Positions 6,893 through 18,626 of a DNA stretch of 64,000 nt are shown piece after piece. Under the pieces are notes generated by a model. The model ran no database searches, was not told the DNA's origin, and saw nothing but the letters and a program-made list of their open reading frames with translations. Made by a program: the position numbers and the translations under genes. Source of the DNA: Escherichia phage VerenaGrendelmeier_Bas101. The DNA lies in sequence record PQ850631.1. One strand, given 5' to 3'. Positions within the stretch are counted from its first letter, which is position 1. Each line of letters opens with the position of its first letter.

Positions 6893-6899
6893 GGTGTAT

Positions 6900-7475
6900 A
6901 TGACAGATGTCGACCTGATTGACATGCTGGCAACGCGAATTGAAGAAGGTCTGGCGGCGTATAGTCGTGCAGACCTTTCTGCTGTTCCGGTCCAGAAAAA
7001 ATACCAACCGACTCAACAGGGCATTCCGACTGGTGATCAGATTTGGTTTAACCTTTTATTCTCAGTTCCATTTGGTTGGTCGATGAGAAAGAATGAATTT
7101 GTCAATGATGAATCTCAATTCGTTAATGGCAAATTTAAAGATATTGAAGATCAGATATACGCAACACGTTTTCAAATTAGCGGTTTATTTCCAGAAGTCC
7201 CTGGCGATCCAGAAAAGCCTACGGCTAATGACGTTTTGACTTATTTAGCAAGATTCATAACCCACAAGGCTAATTTGAGAGATTGGTTTAAAAAGCATCA
7301 AGCTTCAGTATATAGAGTCGACATGAACAACAATGAAAAGTTCTATGACGACATGTCGCAATTTGAATCGTTTCCTTCTTTTGATTTGGTAATCCTTCAC
7401 AGAAACGCAATTTCAATTGACACGCCTGCTGTTGCAAGAGCTGTTAATAACGATTTAGGCGATATTCCGGTGTGA
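6900..7475 (+). CDS. hypothetical structural protein
   Basis: GAGG RBS then ATG at 6900. Confidence 0.45.
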   Translation: MTDVDLIDMLATRIEEGLAAYSRADLSAVPVQKKYQPTQQGIPTGDQIWFNLLFSVPFGWSMRKNEFVNDESQFVNGKFKDIEDQIYATRFQISGLFPEVPGDPEKPTANDVLTYLARFITHKANLRDWFKKHQASVYRVDMNNNEKFYDDMSQFESFPSFDLVILHRNAISIDTPAVARAVNNDLGDIPV

Positions 7476-7476
7476 T

Positions 7477-7962
7477 ATGACAAAATCAAAAATGATAGAA
7501 AAACAGATAAAGGCGCTTCAATCGATGAAGGGTCTTACTGTAGAGGCAGGATGGTTTGATTCTACCAGATACCCTTCAGAAACTGGTGGAGAAGGGATGT
7601 TGGTGTCAGAAGTCGCGCGGCTTAATGAATTTGGTCACATAGCCGTTTTGAACTTTGGACAAGGTCCAGTCAGGGTAGAAGTGCCACCCAGACCATTCAT
7701 GAGATATGCCTATGAATTATTCGTTAGTGAGCGCAGTGAAATAGAGAATAAAATTGCTAAAAAGATTTTTTCCGGTAAAATAGACGCTAGACAGGCATTA
7801 GGTCAGATTGGGCTTGCGATGGAAGCAAAGATTGTCGAATCAATTAAAAACGGACCGTGGCAGCCAAACGCCAGATATACTGTACGTGTGAAGGGATTCG
7901 ACAAACCTTTGATTCACACCAGCCTCATGTGGCAATCTGTCAGCAGCCAAGTCATTAAATAA
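7477..7962 (+). CDS. hypothetical structural protein (possible tail completion/neck)
   Basis: ATG start, tight packing. Confidence 0.4.
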   Translation: MTKSKMIEKQIKALQSMKGLTVEAGWFDSTRYPSETGGEGMLVSEVARLNEFGHIAVLNFGQGPVRVEVPPRPFMRYAYELFVSERSEIENKIAKKIFSGKIDARQALGQIGLAMEAKIVESIKNGPWQPNARYTVRVKGFDKPLIHTSLMWQSVSSQVIK

Positions 7963-7974
7963 GAGGACACCGAC

Positions 7975-9513
7975 GTGATCAGTCAATCTCGTTATATTAA
8001 AATTGTATCAGGGGTCGGAGCAGGCGCGGCTGTTGCAGTTCGCAAACTGTCGCTTCGCATCATGACTTCCAATACAGTCCTGCCGCCGGGCATTGTAGCA
8101 GAATTTTCAACTGCTGATGCCGTTGGATCATATTTCGGTTTTTCTTCCGAAGAATACAAGCGTGCAGCATTGTATTTTGGATTCATCAGCAAGCAAATCA
8201 ACTCGCCTGATTCAATCAGCTTTTCTCGCGTTGTATCCACGGCGATTCCTGCAATGGTTATCGGCGATACTGAGCCTAAAACGCTTGCTACTTTTCAGGC
8301 ATTCACTGGCGCTATCTTAAGCATCACTTATGACGGCACAGACTACCTGACTGACGCCATCAACCTTTCAGCGGCAACAAGCCTTGCCAACGTAGCGGAA
8401 CTTTTGGAAACGGCAATCAACACCAAGTTTGCAGCCGAAGGTGGCACGTCGGTGCCTGCACTTGCTGATGCAGAAGTGTATTGGAATGCCAACACCCAGC
8501 AGTTCACTTTGGAAGCCGCTACGTCGACCGCTGGTGCTGGAAACCTTTCGATTAACGTCACAGGTCAACCGACAGACCCATCTCAGGCGCTTGGTTGGAC
8601 GACTACTGGCACCGTTACGGTTGCTGGCCAGGGTGTAGCAAGTCCGGTAGAAGCCATCGCGGCATCTGTGGAGATTTCCAACAACTTTGGCTCATTCCTT
8701 TTCGCTGGAGCAGACCGAACGCTGGAAGAAATCACAGCCGTTGCAGCTTGGACTCACTCGCAGAACAATATGTACATGTATCTGTTCTCGACTGCATTCG
8801 CCAACATTGGCTCATACTATACCGCACTGAAAGGTTACTCAGGCGTTGGTATGATGATCCGTGCAACCAACCTTGCGAATGATTACATCGACCAGGCACC
8901 TGCTGAAATTCTCGCGGCGACAAACTATAATACTGTAAATGCAACTCAAAACTACATGTACTATCAGTTTGACACGCGAAATGTTACTGTATCGACTGAT
9001 TCACGCGCAGATACTGCTGATCAAAACCGTGCAAACTATATCGGCGCTACTCAGCAAGCTGGTCAAACGCTCGCGTTCTTCCAGCGTGGTGTTCTGATGG
9101 GCGGGTCTACCGCAGCAGTTGACATGAACACTTATGCCAACGAGATGTGGCTTAAATCTGCTATTACTTCTCAGCTGTTCAGCATGTTCTTGAATCTTGG
9201 TCGCGTGCCTGCAAACGAAGAAGGCAAAGCGACTGTCCAAGCCATGATTCAAGTTGCTGTTGACAATGCGAAGGTTAACGGCACCATCTCTGTCGGTAAG
9301 GCGCTGACGGAAATTCAGAAACAGTACATCACGCAAACCTCCGGTGACAACACTGCTTGGCGGCAGGTTGAGACTATCGGTTATTGGTTGACTGTCGATT
9401 TTGACACTGAAACCACTTCCGATAACCGCACCGAATACTATGCAACATACACGCTAATCTACTCTAAAGATGATGCTGTGCGTCGCGTTGAAGGTCGTGA
9501 CGTTCTTATTTAA
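7975..9513 (+). CDS. tail sheath-like protein (DUF3383-like)
   Basis: 512 aa, immediately upstream of tube-like gene; AAGAGGA RBS then GTG. Confidence 0.5.
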   Translation: MISQSRYIKIVSGVGAGAAVAVRKLSLRIMTSNTVLPPGIVAEFSTADAVGSYFGFSSEEYKRAALYFGFISKQINSPDSISFSRVVSTAIPAMVIGDTEPKTLATFQAFTGAILSITYDGTDYLTDAINLSAATSLANVAELLETAINTKFAAEGGTSVPALADAEVYWNANTQQFTLEAATSTAGAGNLSINVTGQPTDPSQALGWTTTGTVTVAGQGVASPVEAIAASVEISNNFGSFLFAGADRTLEEITAVAAWTHSQNNMYMYLFSTAFANIGSYYTALKGYSGVGMMIRATNLANDYIDQAPAEILAATNYNTVNATQNYMYYQFDTRNVTVSTDSRADTADQNRANYIGATQQAGQTLAFFQRGVLMGGSTAAVDMNTYANEMWLKSAITSQLFSMFLNLGRVPANEEGKATVQAMIQVAVDNAKVNGTISVGKALTEIQKQYITQTSGDNTAWRQVETIGYWLTVDFDTETTSDNRTEYYATYTLIYSKDDAVRRVEGRDVLI

Positions 9514-9560: not shown

Positions 9561-10028
9561 ATGATTAACGTTTCCGGTTTTGGCGCTTCGATTCGTTTGG
9601 TAGCATCAAACACTTTCCCTAATGGTGTGACCCTTTCTGATTTTGCAGATGATGCTGATCCGATTGACGCGCCGGACCTGCAAATCTCTGAGGCTGCAAT
9701 GGGCCTTAACGGTGACTTAGTAGTGTGGAACCGTGCAAACCCGCTTGAAGTAGGTGTGAACATCATCCCTACTTCTGAAAGTGATGTTAACTTGGACGTT
9801 CTTGCAGCTGCAAACCGCGTAGGCAAGCGCAAGAACTCCGCAAAAGACGTGATCACACTTGTGCTGACTTATCCTTCTGGAATGGTTATCACGCTAAACA
9901 AAGGCACCTTGACAACTGGTTCAGTAATTCCTGGCATCCAGTCTCAAGGTCGTGTGAAAACACGTCAATATCGCTTCAAGTTTGAGAACGTAGTCAAAAC
10001 TGGCGTGAGCAACCAAGAGATTTTATAA
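9561..10028 (+). CDS. tail tube-like protein
   Basis: 155 aa directly after sheath-like gene; N-terminus MINVSGFGASIRLVA; paralog of 10979-11476. Confidence 0.5.
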   Translation: MINVSGFGASIRLVASNTFPNGVTLSDFADDADPIDAPDLQISEAAMGLNGDLVVWNRANPLEVGVNIIPTSESDVNLDVLAAANRVGKRKNSAKDVITLVLTYPSGMVITLNKGTLTTGSVIPGIQSQGRVKTRQYRFKFENVVKTGVSNQEIL

Positions 10029-10357
10029 TGTATCAAATACCACTTGACAGCGTACCTAACCAGAATATCAGCTTTAACGTTGACGGTGCATATTGGCAGT
10101 TGCACATTTTTGCCGCTATCGAGCATATGTGTGCCGACGTATATCGCAATGGTGAACTTTTGATTCAAGGGGTGCGCTGTTTTGGTGGTATCCCAATGGT
10201 GCCTTATAAGTATCTCATGATTGGGTACGGTAATTTCATTTTCGACAGCGTACCTGATTATGAAAGGTTTAACTCAGGCGGCTGTAATCTATATTACATG
10301 TCAGAATCTGAGTTGGCTGAATTCCAGGCCACTGCTGAAGCGGAGTTTGCAATTTGA
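10028..10357 (+). CDS. hypothetical protein
   Basis: ATG overlaps upstream stop (TAATG). Confidence 0.4.
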   Translation: MYQIPLDSVPNQNISFNVDGAYWQLHIFAAIEHMCADVYRNGELLIQGVRCFGGIPMVPYKYLMIGYGNFIFDSVPDYERFNSGGCNLYYMSESELAEFQATAEAEFAI

Positions 10358-10710
10358 CAACTCTAACCATTGAAGTGAACGAAAATAATGACCTTTTTCT
10401 ACCTGATGGAAGAAACTTAAATATTCTTTCAGGAGAAAAAGCGATGGTGCAAGTAATCAAGGCCGCGCATCAGATGCGACTTGGTGAAGACTTGTACGAT
10501 ATAGAAAACGGGGTCGATTATTTGGGGACCGTTTTCAAGTCGCCCGTTGACGAAGACGGTGCGCGAAAGTCGATTGCAGATGCTATTCTGAAGAAAGCAG
10601 ACGTTGCCGGAATCGACTCATTGACTGTCACCATCCAAAACGGTATCCTTGGATTCACTGCAGAAGTGGTGACTATTTATGGCGAACGTATAAAGGTGAG
10701 TAATCAATAA
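10354..10710 (+). CDS. hypothetical protein
   Basis: TTG start overlapping upstream stop; start uncertain. Confidence 0.35.
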   Translation: MTTLTIEVNENNDLFLPDGRNLNILSGEKAMVQVIKAAHQMRLGEDLYDIENGVDYLGTVFKSPVDEDGARKSIADAILKKADVAGIDSLTVTIQNGILGFTAEVVTIYGERIKVSNQ

Positions 10711-10976
10711 TGGCACAAGTAATTCATTTTGCAAATGGCGTCATGAAATTTGGCGAAAAATTTGAAGACGCATCAGAGCTGTTTAATAAGAAGGTTGAGC
10801 CTGTTACAGAAATCAAAGAGCAGGTCGAAGAAAAGTCCGTTGAACAAAAACTCGATTTTGATTCCATGAGCGTTTCAGAATTGAAGTCTTATGCCAAAGA
10901 AAATGGCATAGACATCAAGGGTCTTTCTTATAAGGATGAAATTCTTGCTGCAGTTAAATCTGCATCTGCGGAGTAA
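10710..10976 (+). CDS. hypothetical protein
   Basis: AAGGTGAG RBS then ATG at 10710. Confidence 0.4.
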   Translation: MAQVIHFANGVMKFGEKFEDASELFNKKVEPVTEIKEQVEEKSVEQKLDFDSMSVSELKSYAKENGIDIKGLSYKDEILAAVKSASAE

Positions 10977-10978
10977 AC

Positions 10979-11476
10979 ATGGTCAATATTAGTGGATTTG
11001 GCACAAGCATTAGAATTGTCGCTCTTCAATCTTTTCCTGTTGGGCTGAATATCAGTTCTTTGTCTGATGACCAGGATTCGCTAATTATTGAGGAAGTTGA
11101 ATCAGTAGGTTATCAACTTACTTACGACGGCGGCATTTGCATATACGACAAAGCCGCCGTCGTTCGCGTATCCATTGCGGTCATTCCAAACACTGAAGAT
11201 GACATAAATCTTAAGCTTTTATTATCTGCCCGTAAAGGTGGATTCAAGTGGTTGCCAATTCAGGATGTGACATCAATGCTTATTACATATCCTGACGGTG
11301 GAAGGGTGGCATTCTCTAACGGAACAATAATCAGCGGTCCGCTTGGTGACTCCATAGAGCAATCAGGCCGTCGCAAGACAAACCGATACACATTTGTGTT
11401 TGCCAGCTACGGCGGCGCGCAGAGCACGTCTCAAATTGCCAAGGGCGTGGTGCAGAGCATATTGGGGTCCATTTAA
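10979..11476 (+). CDS. tail tube-like protein, paralog
   Basis: N-terminus MVNISGFGTSIRIVALQSFP parallels MINVSGFGASIRLVASNTFP of 9561-10028; similarity continues along the protein. Confidence 0.45.
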   Translation: MVNISGFGTSIRIVALQSFPVGLNISSLSDDQDSLIIEEVESVGYQLTYDGGICIYDKAAVVRVSIAVIPNTEDDINLKLLLSARKGGFKWLPIQDVTSMLITYPDGGRVAFSNGTIISGPLGDSIEQSGRRKTNRYTFVFASYGGAQSTSQIAKGVVQSILGSI

Positions 11477-12009
11477 TGGCTATCGATTTACTGTCATATA
11501 GTCTATCAAACAGAAGCTTCACGATAAAGAGCTTCAACCTTGGAGAAGTATCCACGCTTGGATGGGCCATAGTCAACGTCAAAATAAGACTCCAAGCGAA
11601 GATATTCAAAAACCAAAGGGAAGACGGCAGCTATATTGTCGATGGCAGAGTAAAGATGCCGCGAATACTCACTGTCACCGTGATAGCGCAAACGAAAAGT
11701 GCATCAGATGCAATAGCTAAAATGCTGCAAAACAGGTCGACTATATACACAATTAATTCCCGTGGTCTAATATTCGAACGTATGGTGCTGCAAAATAACA
11801 ACTTCAGCCAGGACGCTGACAATATAACGTCTCAGCCCATACAATTGGTCTTCCATGAGATATTAACACAGCAGGATGTGTCTATTCAAACAGCGCAGGC
11901 AGGCGACTCAACAGTAATAGAGCGCGGCATTGCATACATAAAAGAAACTTCTGCCAGCGTCACTGGCGTCGCTACAAAGGTGATGAATGGTATCAAGGGG
12001 ATGTTCTGA
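11476..12009 (+). CDS. hypothetical tail protein
   Basis: ATG overlapping upstream stop. Confidence 0.4.
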   Translation: MAIDLLSYSLSNRSFTIKSFNLGEVSTLGWAIVNVKIRLQAKIFKNQREDGSYIVDGRVKMPRILTVTVIAQTKSASDAIAKMLQNRSTIYTINSRGLIFERMVLQNNNFSQDADNITSQPIQLVFHEILTQQDVSIQTAQAGDSTVIERGIAYIKETSASVTGVATKVMNGIKGMF

Positions 12010-12569
12010 TGGACTTCGTTTCGATTCTGCTTTCTGGTCAATCTTTGACCATAACGAATGAGTCAACAGGTCTTCCTGTCTGGACAAGGCTTTCACCTGT
12101 TTCTGCAGAAATAACATCCCCAGCAGAAACAACTCAATTCCCTCTTGCTGGTACAGCCATGCAGGTTGTCGAAGTATCAAGCACGTCATCAGTAAGCAAT
12201 TTACAGGCGGCAAAGGTTGTAATGCCAGCCCATATGGCGTTAAACGTAATTTGCAATGACCAGTCTACAATTGAAAATATCATAAATTCATTTGATGATG
12301 ACGAAGTCACATTTTCAATAACTTCACGAAGCATCATTGCCAGTAAAATGTCGATGTCCGACGTTGAAATAACCCAGTCAGAAGAAAACTTGAATGGAGT
12401 CTCAATAGTAATAACCTTCGAGCAAACGTCATTTAGCATTCAAGGAAGCTTCGACCCTAAACAATCTGCAGACGAATCATCAAATGGTGTTGCTATTAAA
12501 GAACCAGTCAGTTTGACTACAACTGTGAGTTCGTTATATAATAAAATAAAATCAACAGTAGGAATATAA
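12009..12569 (+). CDS. hypothetical tail protein
   Basis: ATG overlapping upstream stop. Confidence 0.4.
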   Translation: MDFVSILLSGQSLTITNESTGLPVWTRLSPVSAEITSPAETTQFPLAGTAMQVVEVSSTSSVSNLQAAKVVMPAHMALNVICNDQSTIENIINSFDDDEVTFSITSRSIIASKMSMSDVEITQSEENLNGVSIVITFEQTSFSIQGSFDPKQSADESSNGVAIKEPVSLTTTVSSLYNKIKSTVGI

Positions 12570-12570
12570 A

Positions 12571-12987
12571 ATGAAGATCACCAACAAACAAACTGGTCGT
12601 ACAGTAGAAATTAAAATCAGCAAAATGACTGCGATGGAAGGCTGGAATATTCAGCGTCGCTTTGTCGAATTTGCAATGTCGAAAGACCCTGCTTTTCGTT
12701 CAGAGTATACGATGGAAGTGTTGAGCTTCGCAAAAGTCGAGCTTGATGTGGGCCAAGAAATCCCATTAAGTACTGGTGCACTAATTGACAACCATCTTGG
12801 TGACTGGGAAAACCTTAAAGAAGTCTTCGAAGCAGTCCTCATGGAGAACGGTATAAACCCAGATACTCACGCCGAGCGTGAAGGCTACTGGGAACAAGCT
12901 GGCGGCGAAATGGCTGCAGCATTCATCGGCGAATCGATGCGATTAATCGCGCCATTCCTCAGCGGCGAGACTCCAAACAAGGGGTAA
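12571..12987 (+). CDS. putative tail assembly chaperone
   Basis: Small acidic protein immediately upstream of tape measure gene. Confidence 0.3.
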   Translation: MKITNKQTGRTVEIKISKMTAMEGWNIQRRFVEFAMSKDPAFRSEYTMEVLSFAKVELDVGQEIPLSTGALIDNHLGDWENLKEVFEAVLMENGINPDTHAEREGYWEQAGGEMAAAFIGESMRLIAPFLSGETPNKG

Positions 12988-12990
12988 ACT

Positions 12991-15171
12991 GTGTCTGACT
13001 CATTAGAAAAATTTGTGCTTCAATATACGGTGGACTTGAAAGAGTCCATCAATCGTCTTGAGCAATTGCAAGATAAGGTTGATCAGACAAACAAAAAGGC
13101 GAAATCCGCTGGCAAAGATTTCTCTGGAGCATTCAAAGATGTTTTTGGCGAGCTAAAGCCGCTTACTGGTGAGCTAGGGTCAATTGACGGAATACTTGCG
13201 CGGCTGACATATCGTTTTGCCGCGCTCGTTCCTGTTGTCGCAGGATTGGCCGTCGTCGTCAAATCCATCGTTGATGTTCGAAAAGAATACGAAGCGCAAA
13301 GAAAGCTTGGTTTTGAAGCCGGACTCTCTCCAATGGGCGTCGAACAACTACAACGACAGTTGAATGAAAGTTCAGGTGGCATCCTTGGCGCACAGGGGTC
13401 GCGCGATTTAATCAGCAAAGCTTCTAATCTGGCATTCAATGCATACACCAACCCCGATGTGATGAACAAGGACAACTTGTTGTTGAACAAGATGGGGACA
13501 AGTCCTTTCAACAGTAACGGCGGCATCAAAGACACGAATCAGCTGCTTGATGAAATTGGAACAAAGCTGAGAAGTGTGAATGAGCAAACCGCTCGTGCTA
13601 TTGGTGCTCTGGCAGGTTTTACCGCCGATGAAGTCCGCGCCCTTCGCGAGCGCAACCAGTCTGTGAAAGAAAGCACACGCATAAGCGATGAGGAAACGGC
13701 AAAGCTGCAGCGCCAACAAGCTGCTCTTGAGACTATACGAAATAGTATGGGGCAAATTCAAGAAGATTGGCGGCGTATTGAACTGGTTATCGGTGAAAAC
13801 GTTATGCCTGCATTCTCGACGCTTGTCAGCAAGACCGCCGATACAGTCGAAGGATTCCAGATGATGTTCCAAAGAATGTCTGACGGATGGAGCGAATTTG
13901 TCGACAATTTCATCGCTGACTTGAAACACCCGTTTGATAAACAGGCGGCTGTTAACGAGCGTCACGAGCGTGCCGTTGATAGATGGATCACGCAGATGGC
14001 CGAAGGCGATGTGAAACGCCAGAGGAACCAGGAGCAAAACGCTGCTGAACAACGCTCTGCACAGGCTCTTTTTACTCGCGATATCAACCTGTTTTCAAGT
14101 GCCGTTTCAACCTTTGCTGGCGTGATTGATGAGCGTCAAGCTTGGGCGGCATGGGCAGGTGAAATCGGGCGCAGCGCAGGGCAATCCGCGATGCCTGGAA
14201 CACCAGCATTGAATACTGGCGCGACCGTAGGGAATAATCTTGGGTCAGGGAATCCGACAGCATATGACTCAATATATGAGGAAGCTTCAAAACGCTATGG
14301 CATACCTGTAGCGATGATGAAGGCTGTAACTGAAGTCGAATCTGGATTCAATCCAAATGCTGTGAGCGGAGCAGGCGCGACTGGTTTGATGCAAATCATG
14401 CCTTCTAACTTCAAGGGTCTTGGAATAACAGATGGTAATGATCCTCGACAAAACATTATGGGCGGCGCTCAACTTTTGAAAGAGTATCTGAACGCCGCCA
14501 ACGGCGATTGGAATCTTGCGCTGACGATGTATCACGGCGGCTACGACCGAAGCGGCTGGGGCAAGAACACACGCGCGTATCCTGGAAAGGTGATGGCCGC
14601 TCTCGCCCGACAATCCAATGGCGAGTATGCCACGACAGCGCCGCAAGGTGCACCAGTTACTCCAGTACTTAGCGGTAGCGGAGCGGAAGCGCCAAAGGGC
14701 CGTTATGCACCAGTACAAGGTCAATCGCGCCAAACGGTGCAATACAGGCAATTGCAAGAAGCCATTGCAGGATACCTGAACGTACCAGTTGAGCAGTTGA
14801 TGCAGGGACAAGTCAACAAAGGTGATATTGACTTTGCTCAAACTTACCTTAAGCTTGGCACGCAAAGGGATTATATTAAAAACATGCAACTGGCTTCAAC
14901 TCCAGGTGTAAGACCGAACATTCAAGCCGAAGCTATGAAAAACGCTCGTCTTGCTGCATTCCAACTTGAAGCATTCCAGAAATACGGCGGCGACCTTTCC
15001 GCGAATAGTCGACCTGGTGGGCGTGATATTACTATGGGTCAGAAAAACGTTGTCATCAACATCAACGGCGCTCAAGACCCACGCAGCACGGCATTCGAAA
15101 CGAAACGAGTGCTTGAACAAGATGATATCAACGACATAAACAACCTTACTGCTACACCTTTGAAGTGGTGA
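12991..15171 (+). CDS. tape measure protein with C-terminal lytic transglycosylase (SLT) domain
   Basis: 726 aa; coiled-coil N-terminal part, hydrophobic segment, SLT signature EVESGFNPNAVSGAGATGLMQIM...YHGGYD. Confidence 0.7.
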   Translation: MSDSLEKFVLQYTVDLKESINRLEQLQDKVDQTNKKAKSAGKDFSGAFKDVFGELKPLTGELGSIDGILARLTYRFAALVPVVAGLAVVVKSIVDVRKEYEAQRKLGFEAGLSPMGVEQLQRQLNESSGGILGAQGSRDLISKASNLAFNAYTNPDVMNKDNLLLNKMGTSPFNSNGGIKDTNQLLDEIGTKLRSVNEQTARAIGALAGFTADEVRALRERNQSVKESTRISDEETAKLQRQQAALETIRNSMGQIQEDWRRIELVIGENVMPAFSTLVSKTADTVEGFQMMFQRMSDGWSEFVDNFIADLKHPFDKQAAVNERHERAVDRWITQMAEGDVKRQRNQEQNAAEQRSAQALFTRDINLFSSAVSTFAGVIDERQAWAAWAGEIGRSAGQSAMPGTPALNTGATVGNNLGSGNPTAYDSIYEEASKRYGIPVAMMKAVTEVESGFNPNAVSGAGATGLMQIMPSNFKGLGITDGNDPRQNIMGGAQLLKEYLNAANGDWNLALTMYHGGYDRSGWGKNTRAYPGKVMAALARQSNGEYATTAPQGAPVTPVLSGSGAEAPKGRYAPVQGQSRQTVQYRQLQEAIAGYLNVPVEQLMQGQVNKGDIDFAQTYLKLGTQRDYIKNMQLASTPGVRPNIQAEAMKNARLAAFQLEAFQKYGGDLSANSRPGGRDITMGQKNVVININGAQDPRSTAFETKRVLEQDDINDINNLTATPLKW

Positions 15172-15175
15172 TAAT

Positions 15176-16048
15176 TTGAAAAAGAGAATCCTTAAAGTCA
15201 CCTTATCTATGCCGGATGGCACAAGCCAAGTGCTTGATGAAGGATTGATGCTTAGATGCCGAATCAAAAAGGCAGCACTTTCCGTGCAAAATAAGGCCAC
15301 AATCGAAGTCGCAGGATTGACAGGGTACTTAAGAGAGTACCTGCTTTCCAACTTCACCGCATTCAACAAACGTCTGCGTGATCAAGGCCAATTGGCGGCG
15401 AATTATGTCAACGTAACAATTGAAGCTGGATATAGAGAAGGCAACGTTGTTAGTAGCAACTTAGTCTACAAGGGGCAAGTCACAACGGTCGAGATAACAG
15501 CGCCGCCGCCGAACATCGTCATACGCATCACTTGCTACACCAACCAGATAAACAGGACTAAGTTTATCACTCAAGCTGCACCGTCAAACCCAACATTCAA
15601 AGAGTTTGTGGAGTGGTCGGCAAAGCAAATGGATATTGATACTGTTATATGCGATACTTCGATTAACAATCAGCGCCTTGTTAACCCAGGCCGCACAACA
15701 TATGTTGCAGCCGCCTTGTTGCTTGAGATTCAGAACTATCAAAGGAACTCTATTGCGGCATATATCGATGATGATACGCTCATCGTCAAGGATAAAGACA
15801 AAATTCTGAATCCAGAACAGATAACGGTGATTGAGGAATTTGTCGGAATACCGATGTGGAACGAGTGGGGTGCTGACTTCACTTGCATGTATAACGCGGA
15901 TTTGAAGCTTGCCCAAGGTGTGAAATTCAAATCAGTCTTAAACCCAAGCTTGAACGACACCACATTTGTCATCATGCAACTTGAATATGATTTAGCAAGT
16001 CGTGATGATATATTTACGGTGACGGGCGGCGTTGCACCATCGGCCTAA
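15176..16048 (+). CDS. hypothetical tail/baseplate protein
   Basis: TTG start after RBS-like GTGGTG; position after tape measure. Confidence 0.4.
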   Translation: MKKRILKVTLSMPDGTSQVLDEGLMLRCRIKKAALSVQNKATIEVAGLTGYLREYLLSNFTAFNKRLRDQGQLAANYVNVTIEAGYREGNVVSSNLVYKGQVTTVEITAPPPNIVIRITCYTNQINRTKFITQAAPSNPTFKEFVEWSAKQMDIDTVICDTSINNQRLVNPGRTTYVAAALLLEIQNYQRNSIAAYIDDDTLIVKDKDKILNPEQITVIEEFVGIPMWNEWGADFTCMYNADLKLAQGVKFKSVLNPSLNDTTFVIMQLEYDLASRDDIFTVTGGVAPSA

Positions 16049-16582: not shown

Positions 16583-16631
16583 ATAGACTCCTTATAGATT
16601 ATAATTTGTTGATCAGATATAAGGAGTCTAT
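16583..16631 (+). repeat. perfect 14-bp inverted repeat (ATAGACTCCTTATA / TATAAGGAGTCTAT) enclosing the RBS of the spike gene
   Basis: Arms at 16583-16596 and 16618-16631, 21-nt loop; right arm contains AAGGAG and abuts the start codon. Confidence 0.6.
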
Positions 16632-16632
16632 G

Positions 16633-17358
16633 ATGGCAGAGAAGTTAACTCAACTTACAAGCCCCAACCAAACTGACAAATCAAGTATGTTTGCCGCGCT
16701 GCAGGGAATGCTGGATCGTGGCAAGTATACCACTGACGGCATGATTCCTGCACAAGTAATATCTTATGACCGCAAACAGAATTTAGCAGTCATAAAGCCT
16801 GTTATTCATTTCGTAAGTCTTGATGATAAACCAGTGGAGCGTCAACCTCTGGTGTCAATTCCTGTATTGGCAATCGGCGGCGGCGGCTTTGTAATCAACT
16901 TTCCTTTGAAAGAAGGTGATTTGGGCTGGATATTCGCTGGCGACCGCGAGTTGTCGACATTCCTTGAAGAATTGAAGCCGACCGCGCCTACCAATGGTCG
17001 CGTGAAAACTTTCGCTGATGGACTGTTCATACCGGATGTATTCCGAAAATACACCATAAGCGGAGAGGATGCAGGCTCAATGGTAATTCAGTCACTCAGC
17101 GGCGCTGTACGAATTGCATTAAGTGATGACTCGATAAACATAACCGCATCAGCTGGGGTAAACGTGAAAACACCAATCACCACTATCGACCAACAACTGA
17201 TAGTGAATGGAAAGGCAACATTCAATGGTGGTATAGAAGGGAAAGAAGGAACGACGGCAACGCTTCCGACTGGCACCACAATCGGCGGCACAAATGTATC
17301 CACTCACGGGCACATAGGTAACGGACCTGGAAACAGAACTGGGGACATGATAGAATGA
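16633..17358 (+). CDS. baseplate central spike protein (gpV / Mu gp45-like)
   Basis: OB-fold-like region PVLAIGGGGFVINFPLKEGDLGWIFAGD; C-terminal GTNVSTHGHIGNGPGNRTG. Start chosen at ATG with AAGGAG spacing. Confidence 0.55.
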   Translation: MAEKLTQLTSPNQTDKSSMFAALQGMLDRGKYTTDGMIPAQVISYDRKQNLAVIKPVIHFVSLDDKPVERQPLVSIPVLAIGGGGFVINFPLKEGDLGWIFAGDRELSTFLEELKPTAPTNGRVKTFADGLFIPDVFRKYTISGEDAGSMVIQSLSGAVRIALSDDSINITASAGVNVKTPITTIDQQLIVNGKATFNGGIEGKEGTTATLPTGTTIGGTNVSTHGHIGNGPGNRTGDMIE

Positions 17359-18626
17359 GTGCACAATATTCTTACATAGTAAGCACTGGTGTAATAACCA
17401 TCGACACAGCCGATTTGCTGGCTGACGTTCAGAATGAATGGATTGAGTCATTAGGGGTCGGGCTTGACGTTGATGCATCGACACCGCAAGGCACCCTAAT
17501 CGCGACAGAGACTTTGGCAAGAACTTCAGTCATGAAGAACAACGCCGAGCTGGGAAGTCTCATCAACCCTAATTATTCATATGGCGTATACCTTGATGCC
17601 ATCGCGGCACTGCTTGGTATTGAGCGAACGAAAAACATCAGCACGATGTTGAAAGGAATTACCGCAGAAGGAACGCCGCTGTTGGAAATTCCTGCTGGAA
17701 GTTTGCTGACGGATTCAAACGGCACATACTGGTATGTTCTTGAAGACGTTCAAATCACTTCGACTGGCAAGACAAGCAACATGACTCTTGCATCAAAAGA
17801 TTATGGCTCATTTACGGTTGCCCCTGATGAAGAGTTTACAGTGGTGCAAGGTTATGACGTCATCGGATGGTCAAGAACGTATTCAACATCAGCAACGACG
17901 ACTGTGCCAGGAACGCAATACATGGGCGACGGAGCGTTAAAGGCCGCTCGCGTTAAGCGTCTTTACCAGCAGGGCATTGCATCGCTTGGTGCCATTCGCG
18001 CTCGCGCCATGTCGGTCGACGGCGTGGAATCTGTGATGGTCGTGGAGAACGACACGGGATTGCCTGGAACGGTACGCGGCATCACCTTTTCAACGCCTAA
18101 CGGTGTTTGGGTGTGCGCAAGCGGAACTTTCGATAAGCAAGTTTTTGCTGAGACTATTTTCAAAGCGAAAATGGGCGGCCAGCCGTGGGACTTTGGTGCT
18201 GCCAACCAGGGCAATCCAGTCAACTCTCCTGATGGAATAGAAGTTGTCGACGAAGAATCACAACTGTCTTATTTCGTGAAGTTCAACACTGCAGTAATAT
18301 ATGACTTGTATGTCGATATTACTGTTTCAAGAGGCACCGCAACCGCCGATGCGGAATCTATTATTGCCGCTGTGTTGAATTACGGCAATGGCAATTTTAA
18401 CGGTGAGCAAGGGTATACAGTAGGTCAATCTCAATCTTCTTTTGAAATTGCTTCAGCAGTGTCTTGCGAGTATCCAGGCTTGTATATTAAAGATTGCAAA
18501 ATTGCAGCAGTTAAAAGCGGACAGGCAGCGCCAAATTATCCATCCGATTACGGCAGCGAGTGGATTGCCAATCCTTGGGATAAGGCGAATACTATGCGCG
18601 GCTTCATCAACGTTAAATTTGTGTGA
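17355..18626 (+). CDS. baseplate J-like protein
   Basis: 423 aa, position after spike; ATGA overlap with upstream gene. Confidence 0.55.
   Translation: MSAQYSYIVSTGVITIDTADLLADVQNEWIESLGVGLDVDASTPQGTLIATETLARTSVMKNNAELGSLINPNYSYGVYLDAIAALLGIERTKNISTMLKGITAEGTPLLEIPAGSLLTDSNGTYWYVLEDVQITSTGKTSNMTLASKDYGSFTVAPDEEFTVVQGYDVIGWSRTYSTSATTTVPGTQYMGDGALKAARVKRLYQQGIASLGAIRARAMSVDGVESVMVVENDTGLPGTVRGITFSTPNGVWVCASGTFDKQVFAETIFKAKMGGQPWDFGAANQGNPVNSPDGIEVVDEESQLSYFVKFNTAVIYDLYVDITVSRGTATADAESIIAAVLNYGNGNFNGEQGYTVGQSQSSFEIASAVSCEYPGLYIKDCKIAAVKSGQAAPNYPSDYGSEWIANPWDKANTMRGFINVKFV

What the first reader, a model, noticed from the sequence alone, without database searches (positions are those of the whole stretch)
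9561..11476. Two paralogous tail tube-like genes separated by three small genes
Proteins 9561-10028 and 10979-11476 share an N-terminus (M(I/V)N(V/I)SGFG(A/T)SIR(L/I)VA) and overall length and pattern. One follows the sheath-like gene as expected for a tube protein; the second may be a tube initiator or terminator, or a baseplate tube component derived by duplication.
Basis: seen in the sequence. Interest (0 to 1): 0.4.

Follow-up and report, generated by a model that had tools for sequence, protein, structure and literature searches.

The report
Tail tube and baseplate-tube paralogues
The two similar genes are the tail tube protein of an E. coli myophage (Wifcevirus) and its old duplicate, which by homology forms one adaptor ring joining the tube to the baseplate; this arrangement has already been solved by cryo-EM in related Pseudomonas phages, so the finding is real but ordinary.

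Summary
ORF A (9561-10028, 155 aa) and ORF B (10979-11476, 165 aa) are paralogues: 33% identity over 143 aa without gaps, E 2e-32. Both match Pfam PF22764. Three small genes lie between them, and a sheath gene lies upstream.

The window is a Wifcevirus, 99.3% identical in DNA to Escherichia phage vB_Eco4M-7. ORF A matches the solved tail tube proteins of Pseudomonas phages Pa193 (gp33) and E217 (gp32). ORF B matches Pa193 gp37 "baseplate tube" and E217 gp36 "tail tube-B". In those phages this protein forms one hexameric ring under the last tube ring and carries the ripcord heterohexamer, the hub and the tip.

The gene order sheath, tube, adaptor, sheath initiator, small variable gene, tube-B, ripcord-1, ripcord-2, chaperone-position gene, tape measure, hub is kept in five phage groups. 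A tree separates a tube clade from a tube-B clade (100/100 bootstraps), so the duplication is ancient. Both genes are under strong purifying selection. Published mass spectrometry of vB_Eco4M-7 detected both proteins, the tube with a far higher score.

Novelty is low. Public records mislabel both genes "tail fiber protein".

The parts
7975..9513 (+). Tail sheath protein (512 aa)
   Evidence: PF11863 DUF3383 at 3e-119 and phrog_205 'tail sheath' at 1.5e-73. Corresponds to vB_Eco4M-7_48, which was detected by MS.
9561..10028 (+). ORF A: major tail tube protein (155 aa, 16.5 kDa)
   Evidence: PF22764 at 1.2e-60. Best solved matches are Pa193 gp33 tail tube 9b42 (1.4e-48) and E217 gp32 8fuv (4.4e-42). 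Falls in the tube clade. Amino-acid-identical to vB_Eco4M-7_49, which gave 6 peptides, 52% coverage and score 283 by MS. 45 synonymous against 2 non-synonymous codon differences versus ECO71P1.
10028..10357 (+). Baseplate adaptor, 'helical bundle' (109 aa); orthologue of E217 gp33 / Pa193 gp34
   Evidence: PDB 9b45_A at 1.1e-26 and 8env_G at 2.3e-26. PF22479 Pam3_gp18 at 4e-16.
10354..10710 (+). Sheath initiator (118 aa, TTG start); orthologue of E217 gp34 / Pa193 gp35
   Evidence: PDB 9b45_G 'Sheath initiator' at 6e-23 and 8env_H at 1.8e-21. phrog_120 at 8e-21. Corresponds to vB_Eco4M-7_51, detected by MS.
10710..10976 (+). Small variable protein (88 aa) with a C-terminal SAP-like motif; sits where E217 gp35 / Pa193 gp36 sit; function unknown
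   Evidence: No solved homologue. PF02037 SAP at 8e-6. Only a short N-terminal motif is shared with the genes at this position in other genera. 18 synonymous against 14 non-synonymous differences versus ECO71P1. Corresponds to vB_Eco4M-7_52, MS score 2929.
10979..11476 (+). ORF B: baseplate tube / tail tube-B (165 aa, 17.6 kDa), inferred to form one hexameric ring between the tube and the ripcord ring
   Evidence: PF22764 at 1.9e-53. Best solved matches are Pa193 gp37 'baseplate tube' 9b45_M (1.1e-52) and E217 gp36 8env_I (2.2e-49). Falls in the tube-B clade, 100/100 bootstraps. Amino-acid-identical to vB_Eco4M-7_53, which gave 3 peptides and score 4.5 by MS. 41 synonymous against 0 non-synonymous differences.
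11476..12009 (+). Ripcord-1 (177 aa); orthologue of E217 gp37 / Pa193 gp38
   Evidence: PDB 9b45_S at 1.1e-20 and 8eon_A at 2.9e-20. PF22760 at 3e-10.
12009..12569 (+). Ripcord-2 (186 aa); orthologue of E217 gp38 / Pa193 gp39
   Evidence: PDB 9b45_V at 1.3e-27 and 8eon_D at 1.6e-27. PF22760 at 1.8e-71.
15176..16048 (+). Baseplate hub (290 aa); orthologue of E217 gp41 / Pa193 gp42, the next layer of the cap below the ripcords
   Evidence: PDB 8eon_E at 2.5e-85. PF22759 at 3e-118.

Best explanation
ORF A is the major tail tube protein. It polymerises as stacked hexamers inside the sheath. ORF B is its ancient paralogue, the 'baseplate tube' or 'tail tube-B'. It forms one hexameric ring, coaxial with the tube, at the tube's baseplate end. 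This ring is the interface between the six-fold tube and the cap below it: three ripcord-1/ripcord-2 heterodimers (11476-12569), then the trimeric hub (15176-16048), then the tip. By analogy with tube-initiator rings in other contractile tails (my own knowledge), it probably also offers the surface on which ORF A starts to polymerise. After contraction the ring stays on the tube tip with the ripcords and hub, while the wedge 'nut' slides up with the sheath.

Shown here: the paralogy, the orthology of each copy to a solved protein, the conserved gene order, purifying selection, and expression at unequal abundance in a phage with identical proteins.

Inferred by homology and not shown for this phage: the ring position, the hexameric stoichiometry and the behaviour on contraction.
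For: - **Paralogy:** E 2e-32.
- **Reciprocal orthology to solved chains:** ORF A matches the tail tubes 9b42 and 8fuv at 1e-48 and 4e-42, but tube-B only at about 1e-25. ORF B matches tube-B 9b45_M and 8env_I at 1e-52 and 2e-49, but the tubes only at 1e-21 and 3e-16.
- **Role of the orthologues:** the cryo-EM papers describe E217 gp36 and Pa193 gp37 as a hexameric ring with the tube fold (RMSD 3.6 and 4.2 A to the tube). It is coaxial with the tube, serves as a platform for the ripcord heterohexamer, and is retained at the tip after contraction (PMC10329688; PMC11456595).
- **Partners present:** every interaction partner is encoded in the window in the same order: adaptor, sheath initiator, ripcord-1, ripcord-2, hub.
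- **Synteny:** the order is conserved in PB1, MyoSmar, XcP1 and Karil-Mokiny-1.
- **Distribution:** tblastn of ORF B finds 735 places in 379 phage records. Nearly every listed record has two places.
- **Tree:** the tube-B clade has 100/100 bootstrap support.
- **Selection:** 45:2 and 41:0 synonymous to non-synonymous codon changes versus ECO71P1.
- **Expression:** MS of vB_Eco4M-7, whose proteins are identical, detected both. Tube: score 283 and 52% coverage. Tube-B: score 4.5 and 25% coverage. This fits many rings against one.
Against: - No structure or stoichiometry exists for any Wifcevirus. Ring position and copy number are transferred from phages whose proteins are only about 52-55% identical.
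- The MS scores are not quantitative, and the sample was a phage lysate preparation. The abundance ratio is therefore only indicative, and the tube-B score (4.5, 3 peptides) is weak.
- My own structure predictions failed (pLDDT 29 and 33) and add nothing.
- The 'initiator' role, meaning nucleation of tube polymerisation, is not demonstrated even in E217 or Pa193.
Confidence: 0.9

Rival explanations
1. ORF B is a tail tube terminator or tail-completion protein that caps the tube at the neck end.
For: Terminators of some contractile tails are distantly related to the tube fold (my own knowledge).
Against: The solved orthologues of ORF B sit in the baseplate cap. The neck-end proteins are encoded separately, upstream of the sheath: 6894-7475 is the E217 gp29-type 'gateway' protein (PF22756, 1e-38), and 7477-7962 is annotated 'tail completion or Neck1' in Bas98. 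ORF B is encoded among baseplate genes.
Confidence: 0.02
2. ORF A and ORF B are two interchangeable or co-polymerising major tube proteins, with both present along the whole tube.
For: They share the same fold family and similar size.
Against: In E217 and Pa193 the tube is built from one protein only. The two clades have stayed distinct across at least five phage groups, and tube-B carries a clade-specific C-terminal extension. The MS signal for ORF B is far weaker than for ORF A.
Confidence: 0.03
3. The pair is a recent, lineage-specific duplication, with one copy redundant or decaying.
For: The very similar N-termini could suggest a recent event.
Against: ORF A is 55% identical to the PB1 tube but only 31% to its own neighbour ORF B. 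ORF B is 52-60% identical to tube-B of other genera. The tree splits by paralogue and not by phage, 100/100. ORF B has 41 synonymous and 0 non-synonymous changes within the genus and is 100% conserved in protein in genomes about 10% divergent in DNA.
Confidence: 0.01

Closest known systems
E217 gp36 'tail tube-B' (PDB 8env/8eon) and Pa193 gp37 'baseplate tube' (PDB 9b45), Pbunavirus
   Same: ORF B aligns over its full length at about 52% identity (E 1e-52 and 2e-49). It sits at the same place in the gene order, after three small genes and before the two ripcord genes. It belongs to the same Pfam family as the tube (PF22764) and carries the same C-terminal extension relative to the tube.
   Different: The host is Escherichia/Shigella rather than Pseudomonas. 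No structure exists for the Wifcevirus protein. The small gene just upstream (10710-10976) has no detectable similarity to the PB1 gene at that position, apart from a short N-terminal motif.
E217 gp32 (PDB 8fuv) and Pa193 gp33 (PDB 9b42) tail tube
   Same: ORF A aligns over its full length at E 4e-42 and 1.4e-48. It lies directly downstream of the sheath gene.
   Different: Only ordinary sequence divergence: about 55% identity to the PB1 tube.
Tube-like initiator rings of other contractile systems: T4 gp48/gp54, Afp5/Pvc5 (my own knowledge, not tested here)
   Same: The same logic applies: a tube-fold paralogue forms one ring between the hub complex and the repeating tube.
   Different: No sequence similarity was detected in any search here. 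These systems have different numbers of adaptor rings, and they lack the ripcord heterohexamer described for E217 and Pa193.

Membership tests
Pfam PF22764 (E217_Gp32; tail tube / tube-B family of Pbunavirus-type myophages) | Full-length match to the family profile above the gathering score (27 bits) | tested here: met
   ORF A scores 203.8 bits over profile positions 1-143 of 144. ORF B scores 180.4 bits over positions 2-143 of 144.
Baseplate tube / tail tube-B (E217 gp36, Pa193 gp37) | Closer in sequence to the solved tube-B proteins than to the solved tube proteins (orthology) | tested here: met
   ORF B scores 181 and 170 bits against tube-B, but 80 and 63 bits against the tubes. It falls in the tube-B clade with 100/100 bootstraps.
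Baseplate tube / tail tube-B (E217 gp36, Pa193 gp37) | Genomic position: downstream of the sheath initiator and immediately upstream of the ripcord-1/ripcord-2 pair and the tape measure | tested here: met
   Window order established. The same order holds in PB1, MyoSmar, XcP1 and Karil-Mokiny-1.
Baseplate tube / tail tube-B (E217 gp36, Pa193 gp37) | C-terminal extension beyond the tube core | tested here: met
   A conserved GAQS...Q.....(I/L)L tail is present in all five tube-B sequences and absent from all tube sequences. A similar tail occurs in the diverged Bm1 copy.
Baseplate tube / tail tube-B (E217 gp36, Pa193 gp37) | Forms a single hexameric ring coaxial with the tube at the baseplate end of the virion | not testable with these tools
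   Known only from the E217 and Pa193 cryo-EM structures. For this phage there is only indirect support, from the weak MS signal relative to the tube.
Baseplate tube / tail tube-B (E217 gp36, Pa193 gp37) | Tube fold (two orthogonally packed beta-sheets) | tested here: inconclusive
   AlphaFold2 with a two-sequence alignment gave pLDDT 29 for ORF B and 33 for ORF A, which is unusable. The fold is inferred from about 52% sequence identity to the solved chains.
Major tail tube (E217 gp32, Pa193 gp33) | Closest to the solved tube proteins; encoded directly after the sheath; abundant virion protein | tested here: met
   ORF A scores 167 and 146 bits against the tubes, but 92 and 91.5 bits against tube-B. 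Its position is shown. MS gave 52% coverage and score 283 for the identical protein.

The most novel reading that the evidence does not exclude
The conserved C-terminal tail of tube-B (about 15-20 residues, GAQS...Q.....(I/L)L) has kept its pattern in all five genera examined. The Pa193 paper lists gp37 as residues 1-151 of 167, and the E217 chain in the PDB holds 152 residues, so this tail may be unresolved in both structures. That reading rests on residue ranges and chain lengths, not on inspection of the models, and the E217 paper itself cites res. 1-167. If unresolved, the tail could make a symmetry-mismatched contact that six-fold averaging would hide, for instance with the tape measure protein or with the unplaced small protein encoded just upstream. 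Such a contact might couple tube initiation to tape-measure loading or release. This is speculation from a conservation pattern. Nothing here tests it.
Probability: 0.1. Interest if true: 0.4.

Novelty: already known. Interest (0 to 1): 0.12.

Why it matters
Its main value is for annotation. GenBank records of Wifcevirus and many Pbunavirus phages, the Pfam description of PF22764 and PHROG 2420 all call these two proteins "tail fiber protein" or "hypothetical protein". Assigning them correctly as tail tube and baseplate tube, together with the adaptor, sheath initiator, ripcords and hub, gives a complete tail-tip parts list for a group of E. coli O157 and Shigella phages that are candidates for biocontrol. 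It reveals no new biology: the tube and tube-B paralogy and its structural role were described for E217 in 2023 and Pa193 in 2024.

Tried and rejected
1. **Structure prediction.** I predicted both proteins with AlphaFold2, using only the two window sequences as the alignment because only window sequences could be submitted without a large database search. The models had mean pLDDT 29.1 and 32.8 and were unusable, so I ran no fold search.

2. **Third small gene.** I tested whether 10710-10976 is homologous to the PB1 gene at the same position. BLASTP found no significant similarity (E 10). An all-against-all comparison of five genera shows only a short shared N-terminal motif followed by unrelated low-complexity tails.

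3. **Phages with a single copy.** I checked Bordetella IFTN1 and Burkholderia Bm1, which showed only one tblastn place. Bm1 does carry a diverged tube-B at L007:8132-8629 (HMM E 4e-41) that groups with the tube-B clade (99/100). Three candidate ORFs of IFTN1 did not match, but I did not scan that genome exhaustively.

4. **Rejected readings.** Terminator, co-polymer tube and recent duplication; see the rival explanations.

5. **Programmed frameshift.** I looked for a second reading frame in the gene upstream of the tape measure (12571-12987). The ORF list shows no + strand ORF of at least 40 aa overlapping its 3' end. I did not pursue this further.

Full report
**What the window is.** The 4.6 kb around the finding is 99.3% identical in DNA to Escherichia phage vB_Eco4M-7. 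It is 98-99% identical to WFC and Bas98, and about 90% to ECO71P1, WFH and other members of the genus Wifcevirus. These are E. coli and Shigella myophages of 66-72 kb, and the BASEL paper describes them as distant relatives of the Pseudomonas Pbunavirus genus (PMC11990801).

**Observation.** The ORF list shows both ORFs at exactly the stated coordinates on the + strand.
- ORF A is 9561-10028 (155 aa).
- ORF B is 10979-11476 (165 aa).
- BLASTP of the pair gives 33% identity and 61% positives over 143 residues with no gaps, E 2e-32.
- Both match Pfam PF22764 end to end (1.2e-60 and 1.9e-53) and PHROG 2420.
- Three tightly packed small ORFs lie between them: 10028-10357, 10354-10710 and 10710-10976.
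- The upstream gene 7975-9513 is a tail sheath (DUF3383, 3e-119; phrog_205).

**What each copy is.** A sequence search of the Protein Data Bank separates the two copies cleanly.

| Copy | Best matches | Weaker matches |
|---|---|---|
| ORF A | Pa193 gp33 "Tail tube" 9b42, 1.4e-48; E217 gp32 8fuv, 4.4e-42 | tube-B proteins, about 1e-25 |
| ORF B | Pa193 gp37 "Baseplate tube" 9b45_M, 1.1e-52; E217 gp36 8env_I, 2.2e-49 | tube proteins, 1e-21 and 3e-16 |

The E217 paper calls gp36 "tail tube-B". It describes a protein similar to tube gp32 (RMSD 3.6 A) that forms a hexameric ring concentric with gp32. That ring provides the attachment surface for three gp37/gp38 heterodimers, which step the symmetry down to the trimeric hub gp41 and tip gp43. 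On contraction gp36, gp37/gp38 and gp41 stay on the distal tube tip (PMC10329688). [quoted passage not shown]

**The surroundings.** Every partner in that architecture is encoded in the window, in the same order.

| Window coordinates | Assignment | Evidence |
|---|---|---|
| 10028-10357 | "Helical bundle" adaptor (E217 gp33 / Pa193 gp34) | 1e-26, |
| 10354-10710 | Sheath initiator (E217 gp34 / Pa193 gp35) | 6e-23, |
| 11476-12009 | Ripcord-1 | 1e-20, |
| 12009-12569 | Ripcord-2 | 1e-27, |
| 12991-15171 | Tape-measure-position protein with an SLT transglycosylase domain | |
| 15176-16048 | Baseplate hub | 2.5e-85, |
| 16606-17358 | Spike | |
| 17355-18626 | Baseplate J-like wedge | |

Only the third small gene (10710-10976) has no solved relative.

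**Age of the duplication.** The order sheath, tube, three small genes, tube-B, two ripcords, small gene, lytic tape measure, hub recurs in Pseudomonas phage PB1, Serratia phage MyoSmar, Xanthomonas phage XcP1 and Burkholderia phage Karil-Mokiny-1.
- tblastn with ORF B finds 735 places in 379 phage records, and nearly every listed record has two places.
- ORF A is 43-55% identical to tubes of the other genera but 31% to ORF B. ORF B is 48-60% identical to other tube-B proteins.
- A neighbour-joining tree splits by paralogue and not by phage. The split has 100/100 bootstrap support, or 99/100 when a diverged tube-B from Burkholderia phage Bm1 is added.
- All tube-B sequences share a C-terminal extension (GAQS...Q.....(I/L)L) that the tubes lack.

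The duplication is therefore old and the two copies have distinct, maintained roles.

**Are both genes functional?**
- Against ECO71P1, which differs by about 10% in DNA, ORF A has 45 synonymous and 2 non-synonymous codon differences. ORF B has 41 and 0.
- ORF B is 100% identical in protein across several divergent Wifcevirus genomes.
- Both proteins are amino-acid-identical to vB_Eco4M-7_49 and _53.
- Published mass spectrometry of that phage detected _49 (16.5 kDa; 6 peptides, 52% coverage, score 283) and _53 (17.6 kDa; 3 peptides, 25% coverage, score 4.5) (PMC7048862).

This is not quantitative, and the tube-B identification is weak. It agrees with one abundant and one rare tube-fold protein.

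**Mechanism.** ORF A polymerises as the tube. ORF B forms the single adaptor ring at the baseplate end. That ring docks on the ripcord heterohexamer and hub and presents a tube-like upper face to the first ORF A ring.
- Shown here: paralogy, orthology, synteny, purifying selection and unequal expression.
- Inferred from E217 and Pa193: ring position, six copies per virion, and retention on the tip after contraction.
- The nucleating "initiator" role is an analogy with other contractile tails (my own knowledge) and is not demonstrated even in the Pbunavirus structures.

**What failed.** AlphaFold2 on two-sequence alignments gave pLDDT 29 and 33. Sequence identity to solved chains takes its place.

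**Verdict.** The finding is real and correctly interpreted, but already known at the level of the phage group. It is ordinary tail-module biology. The practical yield is a correction of annotation: these genes are labelled "tail fiber protein" or "hypothetical protein" in public records, in the Pfam description and in PHROGs.

Noticed in passing
window 11476-12009 and 12009-12569: A second adjacent pair of paralogues sits right after ORF B. Both match PF22760 (Gp38_E217; 3e-10 and 1.8e-71) and PHROG 2580. They are only 21% identical to each other (BLASTP E 2e-4). They are orthologues of ripcord-1 and ripcord-2, which form the 3+3 heterohexamer in E217 and Pa193. Their predicted pI values are opposite, 9.6 and 4.2.
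   Followed up: partly
window 10710-10976: This 88-aa protein, between the sheath initiator and tube-B, has a C-terminal SAP-like helix-extended-helix motif (PF02037, 8e-6) and no solved homologue. It evolves fast (18 synonymous: 14 non-synonymous versus ECO71P1). It shares only a short N-terminal motif (xIxFANGVM-like) with the genes at the same position in PB1, MyoSmar, XcP1 and Karil-Mokiny-1, whose tails are unrelated and of low complexity. The identical vB_Eco4M-7_52 gave one of the highest MS scores in the published table (2929; 65% coverage). The Pa193 gene at this position (gp36) is never mentioned in the Pa193 paper's main text, and in the E217 text the name gp36 refers to tube-B. Its role and location are unexplained.
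   Followed up: partly
window 9561-12569; loci L001, L002, L005, L008: There is a systematic misnomer. The tube, tube-B and both ripcords are annotated 'tail fiber protein' in many GenBank records, including Bas98, PB1 and Karil-Mokiny-1. The Pfam PF22764 description reads 'Tail fiber protein gp32', and PHROGs 2420 and 2580 read 'tail fiber protein'. The solved structures show tube and baseplate-cap proteins.
   Followed up: yes
window 11420-11476 (C-terminus of ORF B): The conserved C-terminal tail of tube-B may lie beyond the modelled residues in both structures. The Pa193 paper lists gp37 as residues 1-151 of 167, and the E217 chain 8env_I holds 152 residues, although the E217 paper cites res. 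1-167. I inferred this from residue ranges and chain lengths and did not inspect the models. What the tail contacts is unknown.
   Followed up: no
L007:8132-8629 (Burkholderia phage Bm1): Bm1 has a diverged tube-B gene directly upstream of its tape-measure-position gene, with no recognisable ripcord pair between them. This suggests a simpler or rearranged baseplate cap in that lineage. Bordetella phage IFTN1 showed no second tube-like gene among the three ORFs tested.
   Followed up: partly
window 12991-15171: The gene in the tape-measure position (726 aa) carries an internal SLT lytic transglycosylase domain (residues 430-529, 2.8e-24). The Pa193 paper notes a putative transglycosylase domain in its tape measure protein gp41.
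   Followed up: no
window 1-64000: ARAGORN found no tRNA genes in the whole window. AT skew and GC skew change sign near 24 kb, 42 kb and 56 kb, which suggests blocks of opposite transcription direction.
   Followed up: no
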